Shown: positions 12,694-29,244 of the stretch, piece by piece
How the letters are laid out: each line of letters begins with the position of its first letter
How positions within the stretch are numbered: the first letter of the stretch is position 1
Assembly (NCBI GenBank): GCA_030699125.1
Contig: JAUYKM010000009.1
Coordinates: 204,958-268,957, forward strand
From: Candidatus Daviesbacteria bacterium
GTDB lineage: Bacteria; Patescibacteriota; Microgenomatia; Daviesbacterales; UBA10151
Reading direction: 5' to 3'
DNA: 64,000 bases
Notes under the pieces: model-generated
Told to the model about the DNA's origin: nothing
What the model saw: the letters and a program-made list of their open reading frames with translations, nothing else
The model's database searches: none
Translations under genes and position numbers: made by a program

Positions 12694-14018
12694 TAACATT
12701 TGCTCCTATGAAAGTTTCTGTTTTAGGACTGGGAAAACTTGGATTACCGCTTTTAGCAACCTGTGCTTCAAAGGGATTCCTTAGTTATGGATACGATATT
12801 AATAAAGAAATTCTCAGCAAACTGGGCAAAAGTATAACTGATTCAAAAGAAACTTCACTAGCAACGCTTATAAAAAAATTTAAAAAAAAGATCATTACTT
12901 CAGAGAGTATTACGGATGCGGTTTTAAATTCTGATATAACATTTGTCGTTACGCCCACACCATCTAAAAAGAATGGCTCTTTTTCTAATAAATATATTTT
13001 TGATGTGGTAAAAGGGATAGCTCATGGACTCAAAGTAAAGAGTAAGTATCATTTGGTGGTGATTGTTAGTACTATTATGCCCAATTCTACTAATCAAGCA
13101 AGAAAAATTTTAGAAAAAAACTCCGGAAAGATGTGTGGCAAAGATTTTGGTTTATGTTACAACCCAGAATTTATAGCCTTGGGTAGTGTAGTCGAGAATC
13201 TACTGAATCCAGATTTTGTGTTAATTGGGCAATCAGATACGAAGTCAGGCGATATTTTAGAACAATTTTATCTTAAATTTTGTAATAATCGCCCCAAAAT
13301 TATGAGAATGAATTTTGTTAATGCGGAACTGACTAAGATCTCTCTCAATACTTATGTCACAACCAAAATCTCTTATGCTAATATGTTAACTGAAATCTGT
13401 GAGAAATTACCTGAAGGTGATGTAGATGTGATCACAAATGCTTTAGGACTAGATTCCAGAATTGGGACCAAATATTTAAAAGGAGGACCATCTTTTGGGG
13501 GTCCTTGTTTTCCCAGAGATAATTTAGCCTTTATTTATTTAGCAAGGAAATTAAAATCAAATTTCCAACTTCCATTAGCAACTCATAAAACTAATCTACA
13601 ACAAACAGATAGATTAGTTAAGATTATAATGCAGTATTCTGCTAACAGTAAGATAGGCATCCTTGGTCTATCTTATAAACCTTTCACAGATGTAATTGAA
13701 GAGTCTTTTGGGCTTATTTTAGCCAAAAAATTATTGCAACAAAAGAAAATAGTAAACGTTCATGATCCTGTGGCTTTAGAAAATGTAGAAAAGGTCTTTA
13801 AGGATCAGGTGAAATATTTTAACAATATTAAAGAATGTATTGAAGAATCAGAAGTAGTTGTTATCTCATGTAATTGGCCTCAATATAAAGCTGTCGATAA
13901 GTTTTTTAAAAGCAAAGCTAAAAAAATATTAATTGACCCTTGGCGGATGATTAACCCCAAATCACTTTCTTCCAGTGTAATTTATGTACCGGTTGGTCAA
14001 AATATTAATTATCAATGA
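12690..14018 (+). CDS. UDP-glucose/GDP-mannose dehydrogenase-family nucleotide-sugar dehydrogenase (WbpA/Ugd/WecC-like)
   Basis: 442 aa. MKVSVLGLGKLGLP is the N-terminal Rossmann motif. GGPSFGGPCFPRD is the catalytic-Cys motif. The real start is probably at M7 (12708). Confidence 0.8.
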   Translation: MITFAPMKVSVLGLGKLGLPLLATCASKGFLSYGYDINKEILSKLGKSITDSKETSLATLIKKFKKKIITSESITDAVLNSDITFVVTPTPSKKNGSFSNKYIFDVVKGIAHGLKVKSKYHLVVIVSTIMPNSTNQARKILEKNSGKMCGKDFGLCYNPEFIALGSVVENLLNPDFVLIGQSDTKSGDILEQFYLKFCNNRPKIMRMNFVNAELTKISLNTYVTTKISYANMLTEICEKLPEGDVDVITNALGLDSRIGTKYLKGGPSFGGPCFPRDNLAFIYLARKLKSNFQLPLATHKTNLQQTDRLVKIIMQYSANSKIGILGLSYKPFTDVIEESFGLILAKKLLQQKKIVNVHDPVALENVEKVFKDQVKYFNNIKECIEESEVVVISCNWPQYKAVDKFFKSKAKKILIDPWRMINPKSLSSSVIYVPVGQNINYQ

Positions 14019-15238
14019 TAAGTCTTAGAATATACATAATAGCATTGGCTGCTCATGGCCAAGGTATTTCAGGTTCTGATCGGATTTTTATTGAGTTTGC
14101 AAAAGTTTGGTCAAGAAGAAATTCTGTGACAATTTATGTTTGGGAGGAAGGGTTCAAGATGTGCCAAAGGCAACATCTTGAGATATCAAATATAAGCAAA
14201 GCTTCCCTTTTGCAAAAACAAAACGTCAAATATCAAATATCAAATATGGGAATATGGAGGAAGTTTGGTTTTGTTATAAATTATCTGGCACGGATTATAG
14301 AAGGAATAAGATTGGGTTTTTCCATTAGATTAGAAAATTCACCGTCAATTATTGTTTACTCTGCTTCTGAGTTTTGGATGGATTCTATACCTGCCTTAAT
14401 TCTCAAATTGAGATACTCAAAAATAAAATGGGTGGCGGCTTGGTTTCAGACAGCACCAAAACCTTGGGTGGGGTTTACGGAAGGTGAAAGAAGCAATACT
14501 TATAAGTTGAGTGCTTTTCTTTATTGGTTAGCTCAACTACCTATAAAACCTGTTATTTCTCATTTTGCCGACTTTATTCTAGTGAATAATGAACAGGAAA
14601 GAAAACAGTTCCCCATTCTTAATAAAAAAAACAGAGTAATTGTTGTTTTAGGAGCTGTAGATTTAACACAGATAAATCAATGGAAAAAGAAATTTAAAAA
14701 TTTACCTAAAATTTATGATGCGGTTTTTCAAGGAAGATTTCATCCACAGAAAGGAGTTGTGGAACTTATTGATATCTGGAAACTAGTAGTTAATAAAAAA
14801 AATGATGCTAAATTGGCTCTTATAGGTGAAGGTCCTTTAATGGAGGATGTGAAACAAAAGATAAACCAGTTGATGTTGCAAAAAAATATCAAACTCTTTG
14901 GTTATGTCTTTGATGGCCCCAAGAAATATAAAATATTTGCCCAATCTAAATTGGTAGTCCATCCTGCTTTTTATGATTCTGGAGGCATGGCAGCAGCAGA
15001 AGCTATGGCATTTGGTATTCCCGCTATTGGATTTAATTTACCTGCATATAAATCATATTATCCAAAAGGGATGTATAAAGTTCCAGTCAATAATTTAATG
15101 GTATTTGCTGATACAATTTTAAATCTCTTAGACAATAAAAAATTATACTTAGAATTGGGAGATGAGTCTAAGCAGATGATTTCTAAAAATTGGTCATGGG
15201 ATAAAAGAGCAAATGAGGTATTAGCTAGATTGTCATAG
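14015..15238 (+). CDS. GT4 (GT-B fold) glycosyltransferase
   Basis: 407 aa. The C-terminal GGMAAAEAMAFGIPAIGFN is an EX7E-type motif. Confidence 0.75.
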   Translation: MISLRIYIIALAAHGQGISGSDRIFIEFAKVWSRRNSVTIYVWEEGFKMCQRQHLEISNISKASLLQKQNVKYQISNMGIWRKFGFVINYLARIIEGIRLGFSIRLENSPSIIVYSASEFWMDSIPALILKLRYSKIKWVAAWFQTAPKPWVGFTEGERSNTYKLSAFLYWLAQLPIKPVISHFADFILVNNEQERKQFPILNKKNRVIVVLGAVDLTQINQWKKKFKNLPKIYDAVFQGRFHPQKGVVELIDIWKLVVNKKNDAKLALIGEGPLMEDVKQKINQLMLQKNIKLFGYVFDGPKKYKIFAQSKLVVHPAFYDSGGMAAAEAMAFGIPAIGFNLPAYKSYYPKGMYKVPVNNLMVFADTILNLLDNKKLYLELGDESKQMISKNWSWDKRANEVLARLS

Positions 15239-15267: not shown

Positions 15268-15483
15268 ATGTTGATTTTGATAAGTTTATTATCCATTTTG
15301 TTAATTTTTCCAAATGAAGTAAATGCTTATCTTGATCCCGGATCAGGCAGTTTATTTCTGCAAATGATTTTAGGATTTATATTGGGTGCTTTAATTTCTG
15401 TAAAAGTATTTTGGAAACAGGCCGTAAACTTTATAAAAAATCTTACTCGCAAGAAGGATAAAACTTCAAGTAATGAGCAGTAA
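15268..15483 (+). CDS. Small hydrophobic protein (2 predicted TM)
   Basis: 71-aa ORF with two hydrophobic helices; it overlaps the next gene's start. There is no homology evidence. Confidence 0.3.
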   Translation: MLILISLLSILLIFPNEVNAYLDPGSGSLFLQMILGFILGALISVKVFWKQAVNFIKNLTRKKDKTSSNEQ

Positions 15484-16846: not shown

Positions 16847-18417
16847 AAAATTTTATAACTAAGCCGATTCACCCTTTCTTATTTGCACTTTTTCCTACCT
16901 TTGCATTTGTTGCTCATAATTTTGATGAGTTAATTGCTGAATATTTAACATATCCCACTGTCTTTCTCACCCTTTTCGTATTTATTTTATGGCTTTTGGT
17001 GTCCTTTTTCATAAGCAATAGACAAAAATCAGCCTTAGTAGTTTCGGCGGTAGCGTTCCTTACCAGTTATCTGATTGACTTTAAAGTTTTTCTTTATGAT
17101 TTTAGAGCCAATCAATTTTTTATTACCAATCAAAAGAAAATTTTATTTTTGGCAATTTTTTTAGTTTTTACAATCTTTGTAATTAGAAAGATTACAGTAA
17201 ACTTTAGAAAAATAACCATACTTCTAAATATTTTTTCCCTCTCCTTTCTGATGATCCCCACCACCCAGATTATTTATAAGCAAGCCTTAAGAGCGCTTAA
17301 TCCGGTTAAGTCTTCAAACATAATTGTTTATAACGGGGATGAAAGTGTGCAGGGGGAACTTCCAGATATCTACTACATTATAGTTGACAGATATGCCAGC
17401 AGGCGAATTCTTGATGAGCTCTATAACTTTGATAACTCAGAATTTATAAATTTTTTGAAAAATAGGGGGTTTTTTGTGGCAAAGACTGCTGCCAATTATC
17501 CTTTCACTGTTTCCTCACTTGCCTCATCTTTAAATATGATTTATCTGGATAATGTTGTTGAACAGGTTGATAGGGGATCTGATAGCAAGAGGCCTTTAAT
17601 AGATATGATACAAGATAGTGAAGTTGCCAGATATCTTAAAAACAAAGGCTATAAGTATTTAAACTTTGGTTTCTCCTGGGAGCATAATGCCAAAAATAAG
17701 AATGCTGATTATAACTATGCTTATGAACCAAAAGAACTTCACTATTTGGAAAAGTTACTAGACGAATTAGATAACAACTCCACCAATTTTTTGGGCAGTT
17801 TTTTAACTCAAACCCTGAAAGATCAGACCTTGGGACAATTAACTGGGGGTGGAAATTACTGGAATTTCATTATCGATCAGATTCTGGAAGTTTCCAGGAC
17901 CACCAAAATAGAGGGCCCCAAGTTTGTTTTTTACCATTCTTTTCTGGCGCATGATCCGTATATATTCGATAGAGATGGAAATCCTCAGGCAACAGATCAA
18001 TTTAATATGAAGGAAGGAGCAAAAAAACTTTATGTAGAGCAATTAATTTTTGCCAATAAGGTCTTGATGAATCTAATAGATACTTTGCTAAAAGATTCAG
18101 AAAAACCTCCGATTATTATTTTACAAGCAGATGAAGGACCTTACCCAAAAAGATTTAGACAGCAATTAGATAAATTTAATTGGAGGACTGCCACCGTAGA
18201 AGAATTAAAAGAAAAAATGAGAATTATAAGTGCTTATTATTTTCCCGGTGGGAAAACTGATCTTCTTTATCAAACGATCTCTCCTGTTAACAGCTTTAGA
18301 GTGATTCTAAATACCTATTTTGGTGAGAATTTACCACTTTTACCTGACAAAAATTATGCCCAAGTCTATTCTGAATTTCCTTATGATGTATTTGAAGTCA
18401 CTAATATTGTTAAATAG
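16843..18417 (+). CDS. Membrane-anchored alkaline-phosphatase-superfamily enzyme (LtaS/sulfatase/phosphoglycerol- or phosphoethanolamine-transferase-like)
   Basis: 524 aa. About 5 N-terminal TM helices precede an extracytoplasmic domain. PDIYYIIVDRYAS (metal-binding D) and HSFLAHDPY resemble sulfatase/LtaS core motifs. Confidence 0.55.
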   Translation: MKNFITKPIHPFLFALFPTFAFVAHNFDELIAEYLTYPTVFLTLFVFILWLLVSFFISNRQKSALVVSAVAFLTSYLIDFKVFLYDFRANQFFITNQKKILFLAIFLVFTIFVIRKITVNFRKITILLNIFSLSFLMIPTTQIIYKQALRALNPVKSSNIIVYNGDESVQGELPDIYYIIVDRYASRRILDELYNFDNSEFINFLKNRGFFVAKTAANYPFTVSSLASSLNMIYLDNVVEQVDRGSDSKRPLIDMIQDSEVARYLKNKGYKYLNFGFSWEHNAKNKNADYNYAYEPKELHYLEKLLDELDNNSTNFLGSFLTQTLKDQTLGQLTGGGNYWNFIIDQILEVSRTTKIEGPKFVFYHSFLAHDPYIFDRDGNPQATDQFNMKEGAKKLYVEQLIFANKVLMNLIDTLLKDSEKPPIIILQADEGPYPKRFRQQLDKFNWRTATVEELKEKMRIISAYYFPGGKTDLLYQTISPVNSFRVILNTYFGENLPLLPDKNYAQVYSEFPYDVFEVTNIVK

Positions 18418-18423
18418 TAAAGC

Positions 18424-19347
18424 TTGATAAAAATGAATAAAAAATTACCGGGAGTATCAGTTGTCATTCCCAGTTTTAACGATAAAAAAAAAGTTTTTAG
18501 ATTACTTAATTCTTTAGAAAAATCAACTTATTCTAATCTAGAAACTATTGTAGTAGTAAATGGCCCAAAAGATACCTTAGATGAGGGAGAGAAGAAATAT
18601 CTTTGGGTTAAATGGATTGATGCCGGTGGAGATAATATTGGACAAACTGGCTGTTATAATTTAGGCTTTGCCTATACAAAAAAAGAAAATCATATTCTCT
18701 ATTGTGACTCTGATGTAGTTTTAGATAAAGACATGATATCTAATTTGGTTAAAGCGACGCAGTCTAATAAAAAGATTGGGATAGTAACTCCAATGATTTT
18801 GTATCTGTCTGATAAGAACTTTGTTAATCAAGCGGGAGCAGAAGTTAATTTAATTACAGGCCAGGTCAAAGTAGGATGGGGGTCCAAAGAGAAATTTTTA
18901 GAAGGTCATGAGGTTCAGAATTCTGGCACATTAATGCTTTTTAAACGGGATGTTGTCAATAAAATTGGAGGAGTAGATAATTGGTTTCTGTGTTATTTTG
19001 ATCCCGATTATTGTTTAAGAGCAAAAAGAGAGGGTTTTATTACTTGGTATGAGCCTTCGGCTAAATGTTTCCATGATCAGTCTAAAGATCCCAATATATG
19101 GAGACCGCGAGTATTAAGCAGGGCGTATCTTTTGGGAAGAAATAGGGTTTTATTTATGAGGAGGCATGGCAATATGTTGACATTTATCTTATTCCTACCT
19201 CTTATTTTAGGATACTATTTTATCGAAACTTTGAGATATAATAATTTCCATAAATTTCTTGAGCTTCTCTGGGGTACTTTGGTAGGATTTTTTTACCCTC
19301 TAAAATCTGCTAATTTTATTCCTCTGCCAAGGGTTAAAAAAGTATAG
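18424..19347 (+). CDS. GT2 glycosyltransferase with C-terminal TM segment
   Basis: 307 aa with VSVVIPSFNDKKK, CDSDVVLDKD (DxD) and a C-terminal hydrophobic helix. It is paralogous to the N-terminal half of the 20042 gene. Confidence 0.75.
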   Translation: MIKMNKKLPGVSVVIPSFNDKKKVFRLLNSLEKSTYSNLETIVVVNGPKDTLDEGEKKYLWVKWIDAGGDNIGQTGCYNLGFAYTKKENHILYCDSDVVLDKDMISNLVKATQSNKKIGIVTPMILYLSDKNFVNQAGAEVNLITGQVKVGWGSKEKFLEGHEVQNSGTLMLFKRDVVNKIGGVDNWFLCYFDPDYCLRAKREGFITWYEPSAKCFHDQSKDPNIWRPRVLSRAYLLGRNRVLFMRRHGNMLTFILFLPLILGYYFIETLRYNNFHKFLELLWGTLVGFFYPLKSANFIPLPRVKKV

Positions 19348-19388
19348 TTTTCCTAAAGAAATCATGTAATAATACAAACTTAAAGTGT

Positions 19389-20045
19389 ATGAAGTTTATC
19401 GATAAACTTAAAACCCTTACTCCATTTTCATATATGTGGTTTCTCAAAAGAAATATTGGAGAAGCCAAGACTATACTAGATTTAGGATGCGAAGATGGCA
19501 GGTTGCTTGAACTTTTATCCTTTGGGGAGAAGTGGCAAGTGACAGGTGTAGATATATATAAAGAGAATGTGGAAAAAGCATCTAGAAGAAATATTTTTGT
19601 TAAAGTGATTAAGGGAGATGTAGTAGAAGTTTCAAAAAAATTTGTAAAATTGAGAAAAAAATTCGATGTGGTTTTTTGTTCGCAAGTGATAGAACATATT
19701 GAGAGAAAAAAGGGAGAACAGTTATTTGATCTTGTTGATAAATTAGCAAGAAAAAGAATCGTGATTGGAACACCGAAAGGATTTATGAATCAACCGCATG
19801 TTTTTTTGGGAAATAATCCTCATATGCACCATAAATCTGGGTGGACTATAGAAGATTTTAAGAATCATGGGTATAAAGTTTATGGGATAGGTTTTTGGCC
19901 TATCTGGAAGGAAGAAGGATTAGCAAGAATAGATAATAAACTACTTTTCCTTACAATGACAATCTTAGGTTATATTTTTTCTCCAATAGTTTACTATTTC
20001 CCTACACTCGGAGCGGGAATTTTGGGTATTAAACAAAAGGTATGA
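19389..20045 (+). CDS. Class I SAM-dependent methyltransferase
   Basis: 218 aa. ILDLGCEDGRLLE is motif I. It is paralogous to the C-terminal half of the 20042 gene. Confidence 0.7.
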   Translation: MKFIDKLKTLTPFSYMWFLKRNIGEAKTILDLGCEDGRLLELLSFGEKWQVTGVDIYKENVEKASRRNIFVKVIKGDVVEVSKKFVKLRKKFDVVFCSQVIEHIERKKGEQLFDLVDKLARKRIVIGTPKGFMNQPHVFLGNNPHMHHKSGWTIEDFKNHGYKVYGIGFWPIWKEEGLARIDNKLLFLTMTILGYIFSPIVYYFPTLGAGILGIKQKV

Positions 20046-21646
20046 AAAAAGCTTTGGTATCAGTAGTTATAGTAACAAAGGATAGAAAAAATGATTTAAT
20101 TGAGTGTACTAATTCCTATATTAAATCAACATATAAGCCAATAGAAATTATAGTTATAGATAATGCCTCAAAGCCTTCTTTATTAACATGGCTACCAAAA
20201 AAATATCCAAAAGTTAAACTTATTACTTCTGATAAAAATCTAGGTGCAGCATCTGGGAGAAACTTAGGATTTGATCATTCGAAAGGTGAGTATATTCTTT
20301 TTACAGATGATGACGCTGTTTGTGATAAAGATATGATTACTCAATTAGTGAAAGTTTTCGAAGATAAAAATGAAGCAGGAATTGTTCAACCGTTAGTCTA
20401 CGATAAGCATCGAAAGAATATGCTGCAAGGTGCAGGTCATGATATTGATCTTACAACAGGAAGGATTAGAGCATCAGGTGTGAAAGAAGTTGATAGGGGA
20501 CAGTATGATGGTTTAAGGGAAGTGCCGATGTGTGGTTGTGTGTGGATGGTAAAAAGGGAGGTCTTTGAAAAGATTGGCAGCTATGATCCGGATTATTTTA
20601 TTCCATATGAAGATTGCGATTTTTCTGTAAGGGCAAGGAATGCAGGATTTAAGCTCTATTGTATATCTTTGGGTAAGACTTGGCATCGAGGCCCTAAGAA
20701 TACATTTGTTCATCCCTGGATAGAATGGCTTGGTATTACTTCCCCCGAAAGAGCATACAGAATTGCCAGAAATAAAATGATATTCATGAGAAAAAATTCA
20801 CCATTTCCTAACAATCTTATTTTTTTCTTTTTGTTTCTTCCAATATATACTTTAGCTCATAGTTTAATTATTCTATTGACGGGAAAGTTCGATATCTTTT
20901 TAAAGTATTGGTTAGGAGTTATATCCGGAGTTTGGTATGCTATAACTTTCCCTGTCAGAGATATTGTTAGATCTAACTATAGGAAGATTGATAAATTATC
21001 ACGTCCTATAAAAATGTTCCTAATTGCAACAACAGATCCTGTTAATTGGGTAATTGATACAAAAAGTGAATCTATTCTGGATTTGGGTTGTGGACCTGGT
21101 AAATTAATGGAATTTATAAAATTCAAAATGAAGGTAAGAAAAGCAGTCGGTGTTGATCTCTTTGCTCCTTATATTGAAGAGGGAAAATTAAGAAAAACTC
21201 ATGATCAATTTATATTGGAAGACGTAAGAAAAGTGAAATTTAATAATAAATCTTTTGATATTGTACTTGCCTCTCATGTACTTGAGCATTTAGGTAAAAA
21301 TGATGCTTGGAAACTTTTGAGTAATATGGAAAAGTGGGCAAAAAGACAAGTTATTGTGGCAACGCCAATTGGTGAACATTACCATCCTCCTGAGGATGGT
21401 AATCCACTACAGCTTCATCATAGCGCTTTCCAGCCTGAAGATTTTGAAAAAAGAGGTTATAAAATACTAAAATATGGCTGGAAATGGTTACTTGGAGATA
21501 AGGGATTAGTTCATAAAATAGATAATGATTTGATCAGAAAAATCATCTATACATTTAATATTTTGATTACCCCCATACTTTATTTATTTCAAGAAAGCTG
21601 TGACTATATTTTTGTAGCTATTAAAAGGGTAGATGAAAAGTTATAA
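20042..21646 (+). CDS. Bifunctional GT2 glycosyltransferase / SAM methyltransferase fusion
   Basis: 534 aa. The N-terminal half (VSVVIVTKDRKND ... FTDDDAVCDKD) is GT2. The C-terminal half (ILDLGCGPGKLME ... VLASHVLEHL) is a methyltransferase. Both halves are paralogous to the two upstream stand-alone genes. Confidence 0.75.
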   Translation: MKKALVSVVIVTKDRKNDLIECTNSYIKSTYKPIEIIVIDNASKPSLLTWLPKKYPKVKLITSDKNLGAASGRNLGFDHSKGEYILFTDDDAVCDKDMITQLVKVFEDKNEAGIVQPLVYDKHRKNMLQGAGHDIDLTTGRIRASGVKEVDRGQYDGLREVPMCGCVWMVKREVFEKIGSYDPDYFIPYEDCDFSVRARNAGFKLYCISLGKTWHRGPKNTFVHPWIEWLGITSPERAYRIARNKMIFMRKNSPFPNNLIFFFLFLPIYTLAHSLIILLTGKFDIFLKYWLGVISGVWYAITFPVRDIVRSNYRKIDKLSRPIKMFLIATTDPVNWVIDTKSESILDLGCGPGKLMEFIKFKMKVRKAVGVDLFAPYIEEGKLRKTHDQFILEDVRKVKFNNKSFDIVLASHVLEHLGKNDAWKLLSNMEKWAKRQVIVATPIGEHYHPPEDGNPLQLHHSAFQPEDFEKRGYKILKYGWKWLLGDKGLVHKIDNDLIRKIIYTFNILITPILYLFQESCDYIFVAIKRVDEKL

Positions 21647-24600
21647 GAGTCTTTTACCGATTGCTATATTTGTCCTACTTTCAACAATTCTGATATTTTC
21701 TTGGTTTAGGTATGGATATTTATATGGTGGAGGAGATGTAGGTATACCTTCATATAATCCGGCAAGGGTTCTAGAATTTGCCAAAAATATCTGGTGGGAG
21801 GCGTCTGCTCCTGGGGCACCTGTTGCACAGGGGTTAACTTCCGTACCAATGCAGTTTTTTCAAACTACTCTTGCAAAAATTGGCTTACCGTATTTTTTAA
21901 TTCAAGCAGTGTTATTTTGGATCATCCTTTTTTCAATGGGGATGGGTATGTATTGGGTGGGACTGACAGTTTTTGGGTCGAAAAATTTAATTCTTGCTAC
22001 TCTCTCTGGCCTTTTTTACATGCTAAATCCATATACAATGATTCAAGTTTGGCACCGCTCTATCTACAATACATTTTTTCTAGCAGCTGCATTTCCATTT
22101 CTTTATATATTCTGGAGTTATTGGATAAAAAGGGGAAAATATTATCTTCTATTGCTATTTCTCCTGGTCAATATTTTGAGCGTTTATATGTTTGGTACCT
22201 TAGGATTTATTTTTGCCATACTTTTTTTACTGTTGTTTGAAAGCTTGATAGAAATTTTTTTGCCTTGGAAAGGAAAAGCTCATTTAAAGACTATCATATT
22301 CAGATCTATTTTGGGGATAATCTCCTTTTTCATTATTCATATTTGGTGGCTTTGGCCAGTTTTTAATATTACTCCTCTAACTGTTTCCCAACAGCATACC
22401 ATTGGTGAAAACTTAGCAGTTTTAAGAGGAATCAGCAGTCAAACTATAATTCCCTATAGCCTAATAGGTATAAATCCTTTCTATCTTTATGAGGTTGCTG
22501 ACTGGGGGGAAATTTTTGACTTTTCATTTTTCCGCTTCAGTCCTTATCTAATTTTAATTTTTTTGATCCCAGGAATATGGAAATCCTTAATAACTCAGGG
22601 TTTAACTAAGTGGGCGTTACTATTTTTTACAGGGATGTTGTTGCTTAAAGGGGCAGCCGCTCCTTTTGGAAATTTATTTTATTTAGCTTTCAGTAACCTA
22701 TTTATTTTAGGTACTATAAGAAATCCTTTTGAGAAGTTGGGAATCTTTTTACCCTTTTCGGCGGCAATACTTTTTGCGCTGGGGGTGGATTGGATAATAA
22801 AAAGAATTAAATTGAAATTTATTGTTTTCCCTGTGATTTTTATAACCTTCTTTATAATATTTGGAATAAATTTATGGCCGATGTGGTTGGGAAAATTGTT
22901 TGACAGTAGGGAACAATCAAGTTTTGTGGTAGTTCCCAACGATTACAACCAGGTTGATGATTTTATAAAAAGAGAAGGAAAAGATGGAAAAATTTTACTA
23001 CTTCCCTTAAATTCCGGTGAATCAGCCAAATATAATTGGTTAAAAGGATACCATGGTTTGGCTCTGGGCCAGCATTTATTTACCTCCCTGCCCTCAATTT
23101 CGCACGGTTTTAATGTAGCTTATGTTGATAATGCTATTGATGCCTTATCTAAATCCTTCAACCCGGATAGTCAGACTGACAAGAAAAAGATTCTCGCTTT
23201 CCTGCAAGCATTTAATATTAGATATATTATTCTACAAAATAATTTAGACTGGCGAGTTAGTAAAACATTGGAACCGAAAAAAATAGAACAACTGCTGTCG
23301 AGTTTAGATTTCTTAGTTCTAAAGGGACAATTTGGTGAATTAGAGATTTTTGAAGTAAAGGAAGATTTCTTTTCTCCAAGAATTATTTTATCTTCCAATA
23401 TTCAGTATTTAAATTTACCATCAGCAAATATTTGGCCATATCTTTTGAAAGAAAAAGACGGTAATTTTATTACTCCTATTAATAAAGACAATGAGGATGT
23501 TAATCCTTTTCAGGTGGGAGAAGTAATACTGGTACCGCAGAATTTTTATATCTATGATTTAACGATACCTCCAATAGAAAGAGCCGTTGGGGAGTTACCT
23601 GCAGCCAGCAGAATTTTACCCAATAACCCATTGTATTTTTTAATTAGTTTAAAAGAGTTAGTGCAGCTTCTACCTTTAGTCTATCAAGATAAGTTTATTT
23701 CACAAATTAACTTTTCCGGAAAAAGACTGATTGAGGCTTATAAGTTACAGGAAAAAGAAAAGTCTTCCATAGTTTCTACAATTAATTCATATAATAATTT
23801 AATTGCTGATATTTTTGAAGGAGATTTCCTAAAGAAAGAATTGAATCTTTCAATAAATCGGGAAAGTTTACTGAATGATGTTTTCAATAAGCACATCAGC
23901 ATTTTAAATTATTTAGAATCTCAGACTGAGGGTCAGGATCAAGAGGCAGTGAAAGAAGCATTTGTTAAGTTGAATAGTTATCTAATTAGCCATGATTTGG
24001 TACCAAAATATTTAACTGATTTTAAACCCTCTTTATATCAAATATCAAACCTTTATATTCCGCAAGACGGTGGATATAACCTTTTTTTAACTAGAGAAAA
24101 CACAGAGTCTATTTATCAGAATCAGTTGAAAGAGTTTCATTTCCTAATAAATGGACAAACGTACAATCTTACGGGAGAGACTCAAGATCAGTTTATAGAT
24201 TTTGGCCAACTTAATTTTAAGAAGGGGCAGTATGAAATTGGATATGAAGTAATTGATTCAGTGAATCTAGTCGGTGACTTGGAAAAAATTAAAACCGAAG
24301 GACAAGTAAGTTATCTCAATGGTGAGTGGGAATCTACATCAGGAGAACACGAACCCTCATATATAGAAATTCCTATAAATCCGGTTAGTCCTCATACAAA
24401 TTATCAAATTCAATTTGATTCTTGGATTAAACTGGGAGATAAATTTAAGATACAGCTAATTCAAGAGACGGATATATTTGATAAAAAAATAAATGACCAT
24501 AAAAGAGATTTCGAAAAGGTAGTATTTAGAAATATTTACAATAATTATTGGAATGAAAATATTTTTATTTTCACACTTGATGAAAAAAGTTCTAAAGCCA

Positions 24601-25133
24601 GTATTCGGATAATTTTGGAACCTTGGGATGATTGCCGAATAATCTTAGTCAATAAAAAGTTATGTGATAAAAAAGATTTTCGCTTCCCCTTTGAACATAA
24701 AAGCTCTATATCATTAAGAGATATAAAGCTGGTCAGAAAACTTAACAATAGATTATTTATCAAATCTACCAATAATGAGCTAGAAACCGGAAGTATTGAC
24801 TCCAATCAAGTAATAAATCTTATGAGTATAAGTCCGACCCTATTTAATGGGAAAATTAAAATAACAAAACCGACATTTTTGATCTTTAAGGAAAGTTATC
24901 ATCCAGACTGGAAATTATCAATTAAAGATGGAAACTTTAATAATAATCACCTGCAGAGATTTTTGGCAAATGGTTACTCTAATGCCTGGTATATAGATCA
25001 GGAGGGTACATATGAGTTTAGTTTAGAATTTACTCCTCAAAAACAGGTTTTGATAGGAATTTTAATAAGCGTTGGTTATTTTATAATAATAATTATCTTA
25101 ACTTTTTGGCAGATTAGAAGGAGAGTTAAATGA
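21633..25133 (+). CDS. Giant polytopic membrane protein, YfhO/AftD-like GT-C architecture (paralog 2)
   Basis: 1166 aa. N-terminus SWFRYGYLYGGGDVGIPSYNP...IWWEASAPGAP. A ~430-aa multi-TM domain is followed by a ~700-aa soluble region. The C-terminal module YHPDWKLSIKDG...NGYSNAWYIDQEGTYEFSLEFTPQ precedes a final TM. Confidence 0.55.
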   Translation: MKSYKSLLPIAIFVLLSTILIFSWFRYGYLYGGGDVGIPSYNPARVLEFAKNIWWEASAPGAPVAQGLTSVPMQFFQTTLAKIGLPYFLIQAVLFWIILFSMGMGMYWVGLTVFGSKNLILATLSGLFYMLNPYTMIQVWHRSIYNTFFLAAAFPFLYIFWSYWIKRGKYYLLLLFLLVNILSVYMFGTLGFIFAILFLLLFESLIEIFLPWKGKAHLKTIIFRSILGIISFFIIHIWWLWPVFNITPLTVSQQHTIGENLAVLRGISSQTIIPYSLIGINPFYLYEVADWGEIFDFSFFRFSPYLILIFLIPGIWKSLITQGLTKWALLFFTGMLLLKGAAAPFGNLFYLAFSNLFILGTIRNPFEKLGIFLPFSAAILFALGVDWIIKRIKLKFIVFPVIFITFFIIFGINLWPMWLGKLFDSREQSSFVVVPNDYNQVDDFIKREGKDGKILLLPLNSGESAKYNWLKGYHGLALGQHLFTSLPSISHGFNVAYVDNAIDALSKSFNPDSQTDKKKILAFLQAFNIRYIILQNNLDWRVSKTLEPKKIEQLLSSLDFLVLKGQFGELEIFEVKEDFFSPRIILSSNIQYLNLPSANIWPYLLKEKDGNFITPINKDNEDVNPFQVGEVILVPQNFYIYDLTIPPIERAVGELPAASRILPNNPLYFLISLKELVQLLPLVYQDKFISQINFSGKRLIEAYKLQEKEKSSIVSTINSYNNLIADIFEGDFLKKELNLSINRESLLNDVFNKHISILNYLESQTEGQDQEAVKEAFVKLNSYLISHDLVPKYLTDFKPSLYQISNLYIPQDGGYNLFLTRENTESIYQNQLKEFHFLINGQTYNLTGETQDQFIDFGQLNFKKGQYEIGYEVIDSVNLVGDLEKIKTEGQVSYLNGEWESTSGEHEPSYIEIPINPVSPHTNYQIQFDSWIKLGDKFKIQLIQETDIFDKKINDHKRDFEKVVFRNIYNNYWNENIFIFTLDEKSSKASIRIILEPWDDCRIILVNKKLCDKKDFRFPFEHKSSISLRDIKLVRKLNNRLFIKSTNNELETGSIDSNQVINLMSISPTLFNGKIKITKPTFLIFKESYHPDWKLSIKDGNFNNNHLQRFLANGYSNAWYIDQEGTYEFSLEFTPQKQVLIGILISVGYFIIIIILTFWQIRRRVK

Positions 25134-25468
25134 AAAAAGGCAAAATCATAAAATTTATTTCGGCGTTTTTTATAATTTTCCCTCTGATATTTTTTGCAAA
25201 TACTACCTCGTTAGCTAATAGTGAAGTTATACTTTTGCAGAATTTAATTTTTTCTGTTTCTTTAGCAAGTCTATTAATTTGGCCGTATCTTAAAAAGTAT
25301 TACCTTATATTGTGCTTAATCCTAATTATTGTAATGGTTTTTTTATCAACTTTTAAATTACTTGAAGCTGCAGATTATGCTGGTAGTACCGCTTTTGGAA
25401 TAATGTTCTTTGTTTTATTAATTTATCTACCTGTATTAGTTAGAAGGGGACATATTAATGAACTATAA
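25130..25468 (+). CDS. Small 4-TM membrane protein, candidate lipid-linked-sugar flippase subunit (GtrA/ArnE-like by architecture only)
   Basis: 112 aa with four hydrophobic helices. Its start overlaps the stop of the preceding giant gene. It is a paralog of the 28909 gene (shared C-terminal YLP.L.R.G). Confidence 0.4.
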   Translation: MKKGKIIKFISAFFIIFPLIFFANTTSLANSEVILLQNLIFSVSLASLLIWPYLKKYYLILCLILIIVMVFLSTFKLLEAADYAGSTAFGIMFFVLLIYLPVLVRRGHINEL

Positions 25469-28400
25469 TCGTTTTAAATCGCCCTTAATTTTTTTTCTTT
25501 TATTTTCCGCCACTTTAATTTTTATCTGGTTTAAACAGGGATTAATCTATGGAGGTGGAGATGTTGGTTTGCAAACTTATAATCCACAGAGAACTTTGGA
25601 AAATGCGCAATATATCTGGTGGGAGGCGGTTGCCCCCGGAAACCCTATTCCCCAAGGGTTAACAGCTGTTCCATTTCACTTTATTTTTTCCAAACTGCAA
25701 CTGATAGGTTTTGGTCCGGTTCTTCTGCAAGCCACGTTATTCTTTTTGATTTTATTTTTTATGGGTTACGGGATGTATAGATTACTTTTATCTATTTTTA
25801 ATGTAAACAAATTTTACGCCATTTTGGGCGGTTTATTCTACATGATTAATCCATATATGATGGTGCAGGTATGGCATAGATTTGTTCACTCGACTTTTTT
25901 TTTGGCAGCTGCACTGCCATTTTTGGTAATTTTTTGGACAAACTGGATTAAAAAAGGTAATTCTTTTTCTCTTTTGCTCTTTTTATTTACCAATCTGATA
26001 GCTGTTTATTTATATGGAACTTTAGCTTATTTATTAACCGTCTGGATATTGCTTTTTCTGATAACTCTTGGAGAAATTATTATTCCCTTTACCAATCTCA
26101 AACATTCAAGTAGGTTGTTAGTTAAATTCTTAATAGGCTTCATTTTGTGGCTGTTAACTAATAGTTGGTGGTTGGTACCTACTTTTAGTGTTGGGCCAGC
26201 AACATTCGCTCAACAACATACAGGTGAAGAAAGTCTTGTAACTTTAATTAACATCAGTAAACAAACGATTATTCCTTACTCATTGCAGCTTGTTAACCCA
26301 TTCTATCTATTTCTCCAGGCAGAATTGGGACAAGTTTATGCAAATGGCCTTATGAGAATAATTCCTTGGCTTTCAGTCATTTTTATATTGATTGGCTTGA
26401 TAAGTGGGTTAAAACAGAAGAAAATTGTGCTTTATTCATTGATATTTTTAATTGTACTACTTTTTGCAAAAGGAGCTGCTTCACCATTTACTTATCCATA
26501 CATCTTTGGCTTTGAACACTTGTTTAGTCTTGGAATTTTAAGAAATCCCTTTGAAAAAATAGGTATCCTTTTGCCATTTGTTGGTAGTATTCTTTTGATA
26601 GCAGGAATAGGATCATTAAGGACATTTTTTTCAAGATTTAACAGAGTCTATTATATTAATTCAGCAATTATACTTTCCTTTGTTGCTTTAATTATTTTTC
26701 ATTGGCCAATGTTTATTAGTCAACCATTTGGTAAACCGAATAATCCGGGTTATGTACAAGTCCCCCAAAGTTATAAAGACACAGATAATTGGATTAAAAA
26801 TGAGGTTAATATAAATTATAAAAGTAACATAGGTAAGATACTGCATCTCCCTCTACCCCTTGGAGAAAGCGTTTCGTATAAATGGAGGTGGGGATATAAC
26901 GGACTTGAATCTTCGGACTTACTATTTAGTTCACTACCCTCAATCTCGCATGGATTTAATATCAGTCGATTAGATGATTCTTTAACTGCATTATCTTTGT
27001 CATTTCTTAATTTCGGTATTAGCAATCAGAATTATATTTTGCGTCTTTTGCAAAATTTTAATGTTAGATTTATCGTTCTGCATAAAGATATTAACTGGCT
27101 TGGAGGAGATTTATATGACCCCACTCTTATTGAAGAAAAACTTAATCAATTAAATTTTCTAAAAAAATCTGCATCATTTGAAGACTTGTTAGTTTATAAA
27201 GTTTCAGATGATAATTTTAAACCAAAGATAAATTTAACGGTTAATTATCAGCTAATATATCCATCAAATAATGGTACGTTTTGGCCTTGGAGTCTAACTA
27301 ATGATAATCTTATGATTACTCCTTCTTTGGATGATCAGATAAACAACGATACGATTGATTTGGCAAATCAAGTGATAGTTTTTCCCGAGTCTTCATTTAA
27401 CTATCCACACTCTGTTTTCATTAATAATTTAGTTGACCAAATTGCTAGTAGTGAAGCATTAGCTCAATCATTAATTTCTGAGATAAGGAAGGTAAAGCCT
27501 ATTTTATTGCAAAACGGTGAGATAAATGCTGAACACATAAATGACAAGTTGATTTCAGCAACTGAAAAGATGATAGTAATGTTGAAAGCTAAAAGAGAAA
27601 ATTCTGAAATTACTAATAGTCAACTAGATGATTATAAGATGGACATGGAAACTATTTTCTCTCAAGACTTAAGAAATTCTAGGTTATTACTTTACATAAA
27701 TGAAAGAGATATGAGTCTCTTTTTACAAGTTCATTTTCATTCATTGCCCAAATTAAAAGAGGGATTAAATCCTAATATTCAAATACAGGTAGATGGAATA
27801 TCCCAGTATCTAAATAACCAATTAATCAGATATAACCTTATCCCGCAGTACTCACTCAAATTAGATACAAAAGAAGGTATAGATAGTCAAAAAGTTTTTA
27901 AATTTAAGATACCCAAAAAGTATCAATATGAAATTTTGATGATAGATATAAAAGGTAGCACCCTCTACCCGACCTTCCTACAAAAGATAAATTTAAGTAT
28001 CAATGGTCAGGTTAAGGAATTAACTGGTCAATTAAAAGAGAATGTTATGTCTTTTGGGTATTATGAATTTGATTCTGGTGATGTGGAGATAGGATACAAT
28101 ATTATTTCTTCATCAAATCTGGCTCAGTCATTTGATAATTTAATTAAGATTGGGAATGTAACTATAGCAGATGGTGTGATAAAGGTAGAATCAATTGGAG
28201 GAATTGGGTATATCGAAAGTTCAATTCCTGGCGCTAGGGGGGGAGATGTCTACCGAGTCAGTTTTGAAGTTATGTCACAAAATGCTAATGGTTTTAATTT
28301 TCAATTGGCTCAAGATATAGACAATATCAATGAAGCAGGTAAGAAAGTACCACAACTGAATGAGTTTATTAATCTAACACCAAACAATTGGCAGCACTTA

Positions 28401-28919
28401 AGGTTTACACTAAACCCGTTAAAGTTAACTACTCAAGAAGCATCAATAAGGTTGATAGTTTCTTCTAACCCACAATCATTAACACAATCGGCTATTTCGA
28501 TAAGAAACTTAAAAATAGAAAAGATATTAAATAATGATATAGTGCTGAAAGCTGTTTTAAATGAACAAAACAGTGAAGATGATGGGGGGCAAATATTGGA
28601 TATATCACAGAAGAGTCCAGTACTTTATCATGGAAAAGTAAAAATTATCAAACCTTCTTTTTTTATTTTTAGTGAGACATTTCATCCGGGATGGAAACTG
28701 ACCTTAAGCGATGGCCACAAGAATTTTTCACCAAAAGAGCACTTGATGGCCAATCTTTATGGTAATGCTTATTTTATAGATCAAATTGGCGAATATGATT
28801 TTATCTTAGAATTTGAGCCACAAAGATTGGTAAATAGGGGGGCTCTAATTGCATTTACAACGTATGTTGGTTTAATTATGTTTATAATTTGGAGGAGATT
28901 TAGAAAACATGAGAGTTAA
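25458..28919 (+). CDS. Giant polytopic membrane protein, YfhO/AftD-like GT-C architecture (paralog 3)
   Basis: 1153 aa. N-terminus IWFKQGLIYGGGDVGLQTYNP...IWWEAVAPGNP. The C-terminal FHPGWKLTLSDG...NLYGNAYFIDQIGEYDFILEFEPQ module precedes a final TM. It is collinear with paralog 2. Confidence 0.55.
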   Translation: MNYNRFKSPLIFFLLFSATLIFIWFKQGLIYGGGDVGLQTYNPQRTLENAQYIWWEAVAPGNPIPQGLTAVPFHFIFSKLQLIGFGPVLLQATLFFLILFFMGYGMYRLLLSIFNVNKFYAILGGLFYMINPYMMVQVWHRFVHSTFFLAAALPFLVIFWTNWIKKGNSFSLLLFLFTNLIAVYLYGTLAYLLTVWILLFLITLGEIIIPFTNLKHSSRLLVKFLIGFILWLLTNSWWLVPTFSVGPATFAQQHTGEESLVTLINISKQTIIPYSLQLVNPFYLFLQAELGQVYANGLMRIIPWLSVIFILIGLISGLKQKKIVLYSLIFLIVLLFAKGAASPFTYPYIFGFEHLFSLGILRNPFEKIGILLPFVGSILLIAGIGSLRTFFSRFNRVYYINSAIILSFVALIIFHWPMFISQPFGKPNNPGYVQVPQSYKDTDNWIKNEVNINYKSNIGKILHLPLPLGESVSYKWRWGYNGLESSDLLFSSLPSISHGFNISRLDDSLTALSLSFLNFGISNQNYILRLLQNFNVRFIVLHKDINWLGGDLYDPTLIEEKLNQLNFLKKSASFEDLLVYKVSDDNFKPKINLTVNYQLIYPSNNGTFWPWSLTNDNLMITPSLDDQINNDTIDLANQVIVFPESSFNYPHSVFINNLVDQIASSEALAQSLISEIRKVKPILLQNGEINAEHINDKLISATEKMIVMLKAKRENSEITNSQLDDYKMDMETIFSQDLRNSRLLLYINERDMSLFLQVHFHSLPKLKEGLNPNIQIQVDGISQYLNNQLIRYNLIPQYSLKLDTKEGIDSQKVFKFKIPKKYQYEILMIDIKGSTLYPTFLQKINLSINGQVKELTGQLKENVMSFGYYEFDSGDVEIGYNIISSSNLAQSFDNLIKIGNVTIADGVIKVESIGGIGYIESSIPGARGGDVYRVSFEVMSQNANGFNFQLAQDIDNINEAGKKVPQLNEFINLTPNNWQHLRFTLNPLKLTTQEASIRLIVSSNPQSLTQSAISIRNLKIEKILNNDIVLKAVLNEQNSEDDGGQILDISQKSPVLYHGKVKIIKPSFFIFSETFHPGWKLTLSDGHKNFSPKEHLMANLYGNAYFIDQIGEYDFILEFEPQRLVNRGALIAFTTYVGLIMFIIWRRFRKHES

Positions 28920-29244
28920 TAAATTGATTTTGAGCATAATTATTTTTATTATTTCATTACCAATTTTTATCTGGTTGGAATCCGGATTTGCCATTAAATC
29001 TGCTACTGATTTTGTAAAACCATTAATATTCTCAGCCTCTTTGGTAATCTCATCAGTAAGATTTTATAAACATTATCTTTTGATTATATCCTTGACTCTG
29101 CTATTTTTGATGGTTATTTTTTATCTTTTTTGGCAAATTCCTACTGCAGATTGGCTGGGTAGTGTTGGCATAGGGATGTTTACTATCTATATTATTGGAT
29201 ATTTACCAGAATTGATAAGAAAAGGGTATGTGGAAAAATTATGA
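28909..29244 (+). CDS. Small 4-TM membrane protein, paralog of the 25130 gene
   Basis: 111 aa with four hydrophobic helices. Its start overlaps the stop of giant paralog 3. Confidence 0.4.
   Translation: MRVNKLILSIIIFIISLPIFIWLESGFAIKSATDFVKPLIFSASLVISSVRFYKHYLLIISLTLLFLMVIFYLFWQIPTADWLGSVGIGMFTIYIIGYLPELIRKGYVEKL

What the first reader, a model, noticed from the sequence alone, without database searches (positions are those of the whole stretch)
18424..21646. GT2 + methyltransferase gene pair, followed by a paralogous GT2-methyltransferase fusion
The stand-alone GT2 (18424-19347) and stand-alone SAM methyltransferase (19389-20045) are each paralogous to one half of the next gene (20042-21646), which is a single GT2-MTase polypeptide. 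The alignable segments are VSVVIPSFNDKK.../VSVVIVTKDRKN... and ILDLGCEDGRLLE...VVFCSQVIEHI.../ILDLGCGPGKLME...IVLASHVLEHL... This is a duplication-plus-fusion event caught in place. It argues that glycosyl transfer and O-methylation of the same residue are coupled in this pathway, as in methylated polysaccharides.
Basis: seen in the sequence. Interest (0 to 1): 0.55.

Follow-up and report, generated by a model that had tools for sequence, protein, structure and literature searches.

The report
Old GT2–methyltransferase paralogs, split and fused
In a cell-surface sugar-polymer gene cluster of a Candidatus Daviesbacteria genome, a glycosyltransferase gene plus a methyltransferase gene sit beside a single gene encoding both activities; the two sets are real but very old relatives, so this is a conserved, fairly ordinary arrangement and not a gene fusion caught in the act.

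Summary
GT2a (18424-19347), MTa (19389-20045) and the GT2-MTase fusion FUS (20042-21646) exist as described. GT2a aligns with the N-half of FUS (35% over 299 aa, E 8e-41) and MTa with the C-half (32% over 182 aa, E 1e-24), colinearly. This is far better than any other GT2 or MTase in the window.

The event is not "caught in place". Each of the three genes has its own large ortholog family at 41-79% identity, and there is no DNA-level similarity between the copies. The same [GT2a][MTa][FUS] order recurs in Daviesbacteria-like and Amesbacteria genomes. A Woesebacteria genome has the reverse state: the A pair fused and the B lineage split. With database-wide sampling the two lineages are not nearest relatives. 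Fusion state changed at least 6-16 times, and parsimony weakly favours an unfused ancestor.

Fold searches place the GT2 domain with glycan-elongating enzymes (GlfT2, TarP, GalNAc-T), followed by two long hydrophobic helices read as a membrane hairpin and a class I SAM MTase.

Best reading: two anciently diverged, membrane-anchored glycosyl-transfer/O-methylation modules acting on a lipid-linked surface glycan. The coupling is inferred, not shown. This is a new member of a known kind (compare WsaE and A064R), of low to moderate interest.

The parts
18424..19347 (+). GT2a: stand-alone family-2 glycosyltransferase (lineage A), 307 aa from TTG (304 aa from the ATG at 18433). GT-A domain followed by a hydrophobic C-terminal segment (aa 252-270).
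   Evidence: ORF. Pfam PF00535 56.9 bits. 35% identity over 299 aa to the fusion. 100% match to P0241 from a Ca. Daviesbacteria MAG and at least 120 ortholog clusters at 67-79% identity. DSD and YFDPDYCLR motifs conserved across the family. Hydrophobic segment.
19348..19388 (+). 41-nt spacer between GT2a and MTa. It carries several stop codons in the GT2a frame, and MTa is in a different frame.
   Evidence: Sequence. In relatives the same junction is a 3-nt gap (L005), a 13-nt gap (L007) or a 4-nt overlap (L006, L012).
19389..20045 (+). MTa: stand-alone class I SAM-dependent methyltransferase (lineage A), 218 aa, with a hydrophobic C-terminal tail (aa 185-214).
   Evidence: ORF. Pfam Methyltransf_25/11/12 above cut-offs. 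32% identity over 182 aa to the fusion's C-half. 100% match to P0121 (Ca. Daviesbacteria) and about 120 stand-alone ortholog clusters. Motif I is DLGCEDG, shared with 59 of 120 orthologs. Hydrophobic tail.
20042..20045 (+). ATGA overlap of the MTa stop with the fusion's start codon, the arrangement usually associated with translational coupling.
   Evidence: Sequence. The same overlap is present in L005, L006, L007 and L012.
20042..21646 (+). FUS: one 534-aa polypeptide made of GT2, two long hydrophobic helices and an MTase (lineage B).
   Evidence: ORF. Pfam GT2 at aa 7-179 and MTase at aa 346-436. At least 120 fused ortholog clusters at 51-72% identity. AlphaFold2 model with mean pLDDT 91.3 and pTM 0.74.
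20042..20731 (+). FUS GT-A catalytic domain (about aa 1-230), with the DDD and YEDCDFSVR motifs.
20744..20998 (+). FUS helix aa 235-252 plus two long helices, aa 257-280 and 283-319. I read the two long helices as a membrane hairpin, which would place both catalytic domains on the same (cytoplasmic) side.
   Evidence: Helices in the model. Kyte-Doolittle peaks at aa 259-277 and 276-294. The topology and the interfacial role of helix 235-252 are inferred, not tested.
21059..21643 (+). FUS class I SAM MTase domain (about aa 340-534), with motif I DLGCGPG and a hydrophobic helix at aa 496-515 inserted before the last beta strand.
14015..15238 (+). GT4 glycosyltransferase, a conserved neighbour of GT2a in related loci (context).
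   Evidence: Pfam. Orthologs at 45-64% identity adjacent to GT2a in L001, L003, L005-L007, L009, L011-L013, L017 and L018.
21633..29244 (+). Context: two tandem copies of a GT-C-like protein of about 1160 aa followed by a membrane protein of about 112 aa. The start of the first copy overlaps the fusion's stop by 14 nt.
   Evidence: ORFs. 36% identity over 1188 aa between the copies. Weak GT-C_AftD Pfam hits, 19-20 bits against a cut-off of 26. This block follows the fusion in most related loci.

Best explanation
The window is part of a large surface-glycan biosynthesis locus of a Candidatus Daviesbacteria genome. It carries two anciently diverged versions of one two-part enzyme module. Each module has a membrane-anchored family-2 glycosyltransferase of the glycan-elongating type and a class I SAM-dependent methyltransferase. 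Lineage A is encoded here as two adjacent genes (GT2a, MTa) and lineage B as one fused gene (FUS). Both lineages are old, separately conserved and catalytically intact, with fixed lineage-specific differences in the active-site motifs, so they most likely add and methylate different residues or linkages. Across relatives the GT2 and MTase parts have been fused, separated, duplicated or lost many times. The mix of split and fused forms in this window is therefore one stable state of a labile architecture and not a recent event. Shown: the paralogy, its age, the conservation of each gene, the variability of fusion state, the fold class, and the intact motifs. Inferred: that both catalytic domains face the cytoplasm on a two-helix membrane hairpin; that the GT2 extends a polyprenyl-linked glycan; that the tethered or partner MTase O-methylates the residue just added or its neighbour; and that the product is then flipped (a Wzx-like gene lies at 32080-33339) and elaborated outside the membrane by the adjacent giant GT-C enzymes.
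Against: No substrate, donor sugar or methylation position can be read from sequence. No NCBIfam model reaches its cut-off. The deep nodes of my neighbour-joining trees are poorly supported: A+B monophyly is 97/200 for GT2 and 148/200 for MTase with local outgroups and 0/60 with wide sampling. Whether A and B arose by tandem duplication within this locus or were brought together later is therefore open. Several relatives keep GT2a without any MTa (L001, L003, L011, L013), so GT2a does not strictly need an A-type MTase. Some 'split' B cases (L020 and L009, which have overlapping ORFs) could be frameshift errors in metagenome assemblies. Membrane topology is predicted, not tested.
Confidence: 0.7

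Rival explanations
1. One reading: a recent tandem duplication of the GT2+MTase gene pair at this locus, after which the downstream copy fused, so that the intermediate state is preserved here.
For: The stand-alone pair is colinear with and directly upstream of the fusion. No other GT2 or MTase in the window is as similar. Parsimony favours an unfused ancestral state.
Against: The paralogs are only 32-35% identical with no DNA similarity, whereas each has orthologs at 41-79% identity in many genomes. The same arrangement occurs in three candidate phyla of the Microgenomates group. Many other GT2 lineages are closer to the fusion's GT2 half than GT2a is. An A+B-only clade appears in 0 of 60 bootstrap trees.
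Confidence: 0.04
2. Fission instead of fusion: the common ancestor of both lineages was a fused GT2-MTase, and the GT2a/MTa pair in this window arose by gene fission, with later loss of MTa in many genomes.
For: Fused proteins occur in lineage A (L019, P0326, P0333, P0334), in lineage B, and in several deeper 50%-identity clusters that resemble both (P0362, P0369, P0372, P0375, P0377, P0378, P0471). MTa's best non-A relatives are MTase domains of fused proteins (P0375 at 43% and 172 bits, against the fusion's MTase at 32% and 88.6 bits). In relatives GT2a and MTa overlap by 4 nt or are separated by 3-13 nt, so a small indel could switch the state.
Against: Fitch parsimony reconstructs 'unfused' at the ancestors of A, B and A+B in most bootstrap trees (93/101, 83/101 and 95/101 on the 61-taxon tree; 38/41, 40/41 and 41/41 on the 106-taxon tree). 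Most members of the wider family are stand-alone GT2s of about 305 aa. In L021 the MTase fused to GT2a is an extra A-type copy beside a stand-alone MTa ortholog, which looks like a secondary fusion. The grouping of clade A with the fused clusters has no bootstrap support.
Confidence: 0.2
3. Lipid-donor reading: the GT2s are polyprenyl-phosphate sugar synthases (GtrB/DPMS-like). The MTase methylates the lipid-linked sugar in the cytoplasm, the small membrane proteins flip it, and the giant GT-C enzymes transfer the pre-methylated sugar outside the cell, giving two duplicated three-component systems.
For: The architecture of a GT-A domain followed by two C-terminal membrane helices recalls GtrB (my knowledge of GtrB; helices). 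The fusion's stop overlaps the first GT-C gene, and the GT-C-plus-small-protein block follows it in most loci. There are two GT2 modules and two GT-C/small-protein pairs. Three-component systems of synthase, flippase and GT-C are an established pathway (PMC11127046). SAM is not available outside the cell, so methylating the donor first would be logical (inference).
Confidence: 0.1
4. Artefact or pseudogene: GT2a and MTa are the two halves of a fused gene broken by a frameshift or an assembly error.
For: The pair is colinear with a fused paralog, and the two ORFs are in different frames separated by 41 nt.
Against: Both ORFs have their own start codons. About 117 of the 120 listed GT2a ortholog clusters and all listed MTa clusters are stand-alone. 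Catalytic and SAM motifs are intact and conserved. The spacer contains several stops in the GT2a frame, not a single frameshift. The split state recurs in independent assemblies (L005, L006, L007, L012).
Confidence: 0.01

Closest known systems
WsaE of Geobacillus stearothermophilus NRS 2004/3a (S-layer glycan biosynthesis)
   Same: One polypeptide combines glycosyltransferase and SAM-dependent O-methyltransferase activities in a surface-glycan gene cluster. The MTase methylates a rhamnose of the chain that the enzyme builds, forming a 2-O-methyl cap. Genes in that cluster also have overlapping stop and start codons (PMC2943079).
   Different: WsaE has the order MTase-GT-GT, carries two GT domains and is described as soluble. 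FUS has the order GT2, membrane hairpin, MTase, with one GT domain. No direct sequence comparison was made here. WsaE works in an ABC-transporter pathway, whereas this window has a Wzx-like gene.
Chlorovirus PBCV-1 A064R
   Same: A multidomain GT plus C-terminal MTase. The full-length enzyme, given UDP-rhamnose and SAM, adds rhamnoses and methylates one of them (PMC9614988).
   Different: A064R is viral, has two GT domains (one founding a new GT family), and acts on a capsid-protein N-glycan. No membrane hairpin is described for it. Homology was not tested.
GlfT2 / WbbL-type GT2 enzymes of actinobacterial cell-wall glycan assembly
   Different: Sequence identity is only 16-18%. The TIGR01556 score (84.7) is far below its cut-off (200.55). 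GlfT2 has no MTase domain and no transmembrane hairpin.
Mycofactocin MftF (GT2) with MftM (oligosaccharide methyltransferase)
   Same: A GT2 and a partner MTase that methylates the oligosaccharide it builds, going by the NCBIfam model names. Both halves give weak hits to these models.
   Different: Scores are far below the cut-offs (MftF 58-59 bits against 280; MftM 24-29 bits against 200). The genomic context is different, with no mycofactocin genes seen.
GtrB/GtrA/GT-C and related three-component extracytoplasmic glycosylation systems
   Same: A GT2 with two C-terminal membrane helices sits next to GT-C enzymes and small membrane proteins. The concept is described in PMC11127046.
   Different: The fold of the GT-A domain is closer to glycan-elongating GT2s than to DPMS. 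The small proteins have no recognisable GtrA or MATE domain. No characterised three-component system that I know of includes an MTase.

Membership tests
Glycosyltransferase family 2 (GT-A fold, Pfam PF00535) | Score above Pfam's gathering threshold, a GT-A fold and a DXD motif | tested here: met
Class I SAM-dependent methyltransferases | Rossmann-like MTase domain above Pfam thresholds, with SAM-binding motif I | tested here: met
Paralogs from a recent in-place tandem duplication | Each copy is the other's nearest relative, and nucleotide similarity is retained | tested here: not met
   No significant blastn match (best 37 nt at 76%, E 0.026). Orthologs in other genomes are 41-79% identical against 32-35% between the copies. 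Other GT2 lineages score higher to the FUS GT2 half than GT2a does. An A+B-only clade appears in 0 of 60 bootstraps.
Rhamnosyltransferase subfamily (NCBIfam TIGR01556) | Score at or above the curated cut-off of 200.55 bits | tested here: not met
   FUS 84.7 bits, GT2a 48.7 bits.
Mycofactocin MftF / MftM pair | Scores at or above the curated cut-offs (280 and 200 bits) | tested here: not met
   MftF model 58.5-59.4 bits; MftM model 23.8-28.9 bits.
GtrB/DPMS-type polyprenyl-phosphate glycosyltransferases | GT-A domain most similar to the DPMS/GtrB catalytic domain | tested here: not met
GtrB/DPMS-type polyprenyl-phosphate glycosyltransferases | C-terminal transmembrane helices anchoring the GT-A domain | tested here: met
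   Helices at aa 257-280 and 283-319 in the model, with matching hydrophobic peaks.
GtrB/DPMS-type polyprenyl-phosphate glycosyltransferases | Transfer of a sugar to polyprenyl phosphate | not testable with these tools
   Needs an enzyme assay.
WsaE-like bifunctional methyl-rhamnosyltransferases | N-terminal MTase followed by two GT domains, soluble protein | tested here: not met
   FUS has GT2 at aa 7-179, then helices, then MTase at aa 346-436, with a single GT domain. The WsaE architecture is taken from PMC2943079.
WsaE-like bifunctional methyl-rhamnosyltransferases | The MTase methylates the sugar added by the same enzyme | not testable with these tools
   Inferred only from the recurrent fusion and adjacency of GT2 and MTase.
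AftD-type GT-C (neighbouring genes 21633-25133 and 25458-28919) | Pfam GT-C_AftD at or above the gathering score of 26 bits | tested here: not met
   20.2 and 19.0 bits. They are best described as AftD-like large GT-C candidates only.

The most novel reading that the evidence does not exclude
The GT2-hairpin-MTase modules do not extend a glycan. Instead they make O-methylated polyprenyl-phosphate sugars. The sugar is methylated on its lipid carrier in the cytoplasm, where SAM is available. It is then flipped by the small membrane proteins and transferred by the giant AftD-like GT-C enzymes, which would give CPR bacteria a route to install methylated sugars outside the membrane. The two GT2/MTase modules and the two pairs of GT-C and small protein would then be two paralogous four-component systems.
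Probability: 0.08. Interest if true: 0.65.

Novelty: new member of a known kind. Interest (0 to 1): 0.25.

Why it matters
If the reading is right, the locus marks a conserved and entirely uncharacterised envelope-glycan pathway in the Microgenomates group of candidate-phyla-radiation bacteria. The pathway would use two dedicated glycosyl-transfer/O-methylation modules ahead of very large GT-C enzymes. The repeated, independent fusion, separation and duplication of the GT2 and MTase parts is clean 'Rosetta-stone' evidence that the two activities act together. That gives a concrete hypothesis for heterologous expression in organisms that cannot be cultured alone. As an evolutionary observation it is ordinary: old paralogs in a glycan cluster with variable domain architecture. 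The main value of this check is the correction that nothing recent is 'caught in place'.

Tried and rejected
- **Frameshift or pseudogene explanation for the split pair:** rejected. Stand-alone orthologs are the rule, motifs are intact, and the spacer carries several stops.
- **Recent duplication:** rejected, on the absence of any blastn signal and on ortholog identities.
- **Sister relationship of A and B:** it looked plausible with outgroups taken only from the window and loci. It did not survive adding the 50%-identity cluster representatives.
- **Grouping clade A with the fused clusters P0369, P0375, P0377 and P0378:** suggested by the trees and by BLAST scores but has no bootstrap support. 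I do not rely on it.
- **PDB sequence search:** no close solved relative.
- **NCBIfam:** nothing above a curated cut-off.
- **AFDB fold search:** the afdb50 library was not available.
- **Literature search on Patescibacteria, glycosyltransferase, methyltransferase and AftD:** nothing on this locus type.
- **tRNA scan of the window:** nothing found.
- **Limits of the trees:** they are neighbour-joining on Kimura-corrected distances, because no ML program was available. Deep nodes are therefore only indicative.
- **Not done:** I did not predict the structures of GT2a, MTa or an A-type fusion, and I did not examine the genomic context of the stand-alone GT2 representatives.
Full report
**1. What is there**

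- GT2a, 18424-19347: 307 aa from TTG. NCBI's call for the identical protein, P0241, is 304 aa, consistent with the in-frame ATG at 18433.
- MTa, 19389-20045: 218 aa.
- FUS, 20042-21646: 534 aa.

The MTa stop overlaps the FUS start as ATGA, and the FUS stop overlaps the start of the next gene by 14 nt. Pfam assigns GT2a to Glycos_transf_2 and MTa to the class I methyltransferase families. In FUS it places a GT2 domain at aa 7-179 and an MTase domain at aa 346-436. All of these are above the curated cut-offs.

**2. The paralogy is real**

- GT2a aligns with FUS aa 6-301 at 35% identity over 299 aa (136 bits, E 8e-41).
- MTa aligns with FUS aa 341-516 at 32% over 182 aa (88.6 bits, E 1e-24).
- Both alignments run past the catalytic cores into the hydrophobic C-terminal segments.
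- The two genes are colinear with the fusion.

No other GT2 of the window hits GT2a or the FUS GT2 half at E<=1e-3. The next-best MTases reach 34-42 bits.

**3. Source and locus**

MTa and GT2a are 100% identical to proteins of a Candidatus Daviesbacteria MAG on a 360-kb contig. This organism belongs to the Microgenomates group of Patescibacteria. The window is essentially one large glycan-biosynthesis region. It contains:
- NAD synthase and UDP-glucose dehydrogenase;
- several GT4 and GT2 enzymes;
- at least six MTase domains that pass Pfam's cut-offs;
- a Wzx-like flippase and a hexapeptide acyltransferase;
- one PMT_2-type GT-C (39975-41420), a weaker PMT_2-like candidate (37137-38504), and four very large GT-C-like proteins.

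**4. The event is old, not caught in place**

Each of the three genes has its own large ortholog family.
- FUS: at least 120 clusters, all fused, at 51-72% identity. Almost all are about 515-560 aa, and two are 745 aa.
- MTa: about 120 clusters at 41-69% identity, essentially all stand-alone and most about 204-224 aa.
- GT2a: at least 120 clusters at 67-79% identity, of which 117 are stand-alone.

Against this the paralogs are only 32-35% identical, and blastn finds nothing between the two DNA segments (best 37 nt at 76%, E 0.026).

A scan of species-representative genomes gave 17 loci, which I mapped gene by gene.
- The order [GT4][GT2a][MTa][FUS][GT-C][small][GT-C][small][889-aa protein] recurs in L005, L006 and L007. 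There GT2a is 74-75%, MTa 64-66% and FUS 65-68% identical to the window.
- The core [GT4][GT2a][MTa][FUS] also recurs in a genome labelled Candidatus Amesbacteria (L012: 52%, 43%, 50%).
- Daviesbacteria, Amesbacteria and Woesebacteria are separate candidate phyla in NCBI taxonomy.
- The MTa/FUS ATGA overlap is conserved in all four of these loci.

**5. Fusion state is labile in both lineages**

- In the Woesebacteria locus L019 the state is reversed. A 550-aa protein is a fused GT2a-MTa (62% and 52% identity). The B lineage appears there as a stand-alone GT2, a GT2 fused to an unrelated C-terminal module, and a stand-alone MTase.
- P0326, P0333 and P0334 are fused A-type proteins of 531-532 aa.
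- In the genome of P0334 (L021) the fused MTase is an extra A-type copy. It is 46% identical to MTa and 41% identical to the stand-alone MTase that follows it, which is the likelier MTa ortholog at 55%.
- B-type GT2s occur without a fused MTase in L015, L016, L018 and L020.
- P0001 and P0002 are GT2-MT-MT proteins whose second MTase duplicates the B-type MTase (51% identity).
- Several genomes keep GT2a but have no MTa (L001, L003, L011, L013).

**6. Trees**

With outgroups from the window and loci only, both domain trees resolve a clade A and a clade B (GT2: 194/200 and 200/200 bootstraps; MTase: 179/200 and 196/200). A+B monophyly is modest, at 97/200 and 148/200.

An exhaustive search of 1.84 billion cluster representatives found 484 hits below 1e-30. 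They include:
- further fused GT2-MTase clusters that resemble both lineages;
- many stand-alone GT2s of about 305 aa that score higher against the FUS GT2 half than GT2a does (150-267 against 136 bits).

When these are added, A and B are no longer sisters. An A+B-only clade appears in 0 of 60 bootstraps.

Fitch parsimony gives an unfused state at the ancestors of A, B and A+B in most bootstrap trees. It needs 6-9 changes on 61 taxa and 12-16 on 106 taxa. My sampling deliberately enriched for exceptions, and the deep nodes are weak. The direction of change at any single node is therefore only weakly constrained. What is robust is that many independent changes occurred.

**7. Both copies look functional and diverged**

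- The GT2a family keeps D-S/A-D and YFDPDYCLR.
- The FUS family keeps DDD and YEDSDFSIR.
- SAM motif I is conserved in both MTase families. The window's DLGCEDG variant is shared by 59 of 120 MTa orthologs.

These fixed differences suggest different donor or acceptor specificity. That is an inference.

**8. Structure and mechanism**

An AlphaFold2 model of FUS, built on 49 aligned family members, has mean pLDDT 91.3 and pTM 0.74. It shows, in order:
- a GT-A domain (about aa 6-215);
- a helix at aa 235-252;
- two long helices at aa 257-280 and 283-319, which coincide with hydrophobic peaks;
- a Rossmann MTase;
- a hydrophobic helix at aa 496-515 inserted before the last strand.

Two membrane helices between the domains would put both on the cytoplasmic side. 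That is necessary for access to nucleotide sugars and SAM. This topology is inferred.

I therefore favour a membrane-anchored GT2 that extends a lipid-linked glycan, with the tethered or partner MTase O-methylating the new or neighbouring residue. The product would then be flipped and elaborated by the adjacent GT-C enzymes.

The alternative is that the GT2s make polyprenyl-phosphate sugar donors for the GT-C enzymes, in the manner of three-component systems (PMC11127046). The tight GT2/GT-C linkage makes this attractive, but the fold comparison disfavours it.

**9. Comparison with known systems**

Fused GT/MTase enzymes are established.
- WsaE is MTase-GT-GT and forms a 2-O-methyl cap on rhamnose (PMC2943079).
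- Chlorovirus A064R is GT-GT-MTase (PMC9614988).

FUS differs from both in domain order, in having a single GT domain, and in the membrane hairpin between its domains. Some database sources already label members of this family 'GT2 family glycosyltransferase/SAM-dependent methyltransferase'. I found no literature on this locus type in CPR bacteria.

**10. Verdict**

- Observation: confirmed.
- Interpretation: partly supported. The paralogy is real, and coupling of the two activities is plausible. A recent duplication-plus-fusion event at this locus is not supported.
- Novelty and interest: a new, uncharacterised member of a known kind of bifunctional enzyme, in a conserved envelope-glycan locus of the Microgenomates group. 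Interest is low to moderate.

Noticed in passing
window 21633-29244: There are two tandem copies of a GT-C-like protein of about 1160 aa followed by a membrane protein of about 112 aa. The large proteins are 36% identical over 1188 aa and the small ones 34-35%. Each copy has its own orthologs in most related loci, so this is another old duplication directly downstream of the GT2/MTase modules. The Pfam AftD GT-C hits are below the cut-off, and the small proteins have no Pfam or NCBIfam match.
   Followed up: partly
window 8325-11045 and 29392-32061: Two further large membrane proteins (906 and 889 aa) are distant paralogs of the two giant GT-C-like proteins. The 889-aa protein is conserved at 53-60% identity at the end of the block in many loci, and it has a weak sub-threshold hit to the MmpA family trehalose lipid delivery model.
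   Followed up: partly
L003 10001-12238 (P0001), L010 (P0002), L009 10001-12239: In three genomes that lack MTa, the B-type gene carries a second B-type MTase module, either fused in frame (745 aa, GT2-MT-MT) or called as an overlapping separate ORF. Two GT2s and two MTases are thus retained by a different duplication. The numbers are small and the pattern is suggestive only.
   Followed up: partly
L019 8349-14355 (Candidatus Woesebacteria, MGGJ01000001): This locus shows the reverse architecture. GT2a-MTa is fused in one 550-aa protein. The B lineage is represented by a stand-alone GT2 (314 aa), a 904-aa protein with a B-type GT2 at its N-terminus, and a stand-alone B-type MTase (230 aa).
   Followed up: partly
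L021 8001-11359: GT2a is fused to an extra A-type MTase (46% identical to MTa). It is followed by a stand-alone MTase that is the likelier MTa ortholog (55%), and then by a more distant GT2. This is an independent MTase duplication followed by fusion.
   Followed up: yes
L001 6774-8672 and L003 7577-9412; a 631-aa ORF sits at the same position in L013 (3689-5584) but was not compared; also P0364, P0366, P0367 and L019 10945-13659: An unannotated 611-632-aa protein follows GT2a in L001 and L003, two of the genomes lacking MTa. It is weakly homologous (best E 4e-9 for the L003 protein, only about 4e-4 to 8e-4 for the L001 protein) to the C-terminal module of 880-900-aa proteins whose N-terminus is a B-type GT2. 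The GT2 module therefore has at least two alternative partners. The window has no homolog of this module.
   Followed up: partly
window 32080-41420: A second block starts with a Wzx-like flippase and contains repeated GT2 / MTase / PMT_2-like GT-C sets with internal paralogy. MTases 34134-34790 and 38501-39262 are 36% identical over 166 aa, and GT2s 33336-34130 and 39259-39996 are 33% identical. Modular duplication seems to be a general habit of this locus.
   Followed up: no
window 15473-16846 and 16843-18417: A 457-aa protein has only sub-threshold MTase-domain hits in its C-terminal half (ortholog in L013 at 51%). A 524-aa membrane protein has no Pfam hit here, but its L001 ortholog (43%) carries a weak Sulfatase-family hit. 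In the window they sit between GT4 and GT2a, whereas in other genomes they lie elsewhere in the locus, so local gene order has been rearranged.
   Followed up: no
window 19389-20045 (MTa aa 30-36): SAM-binding motif I reads DLGCEDG, with Glu in place of the usual third glycine. The same variant is present in 59 of 120 orthologs, against DLGCGDG in 40. It is a family trait and not a lesion in this genome.
   Followed up: yes
L005, L006, L009, L013, L016, L020 (record titles): These MAG records are titled 'uncultured Gammaproteobacteria bacterium', but they carry the same locus at 53-75% protein identity to the Daviesbacteria window. The titles look like placeholders or mislabels.
   Followed up: no
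window 1-64000: ARAGORN finds no tRNA or tmRNA gene in the 64 kb. From 8325 onward almost every ORF of at least 100 aa is on the + strand, with many overlapping stop and start codons, and GC skew is positive throughout that stretch.
   Followed up: no
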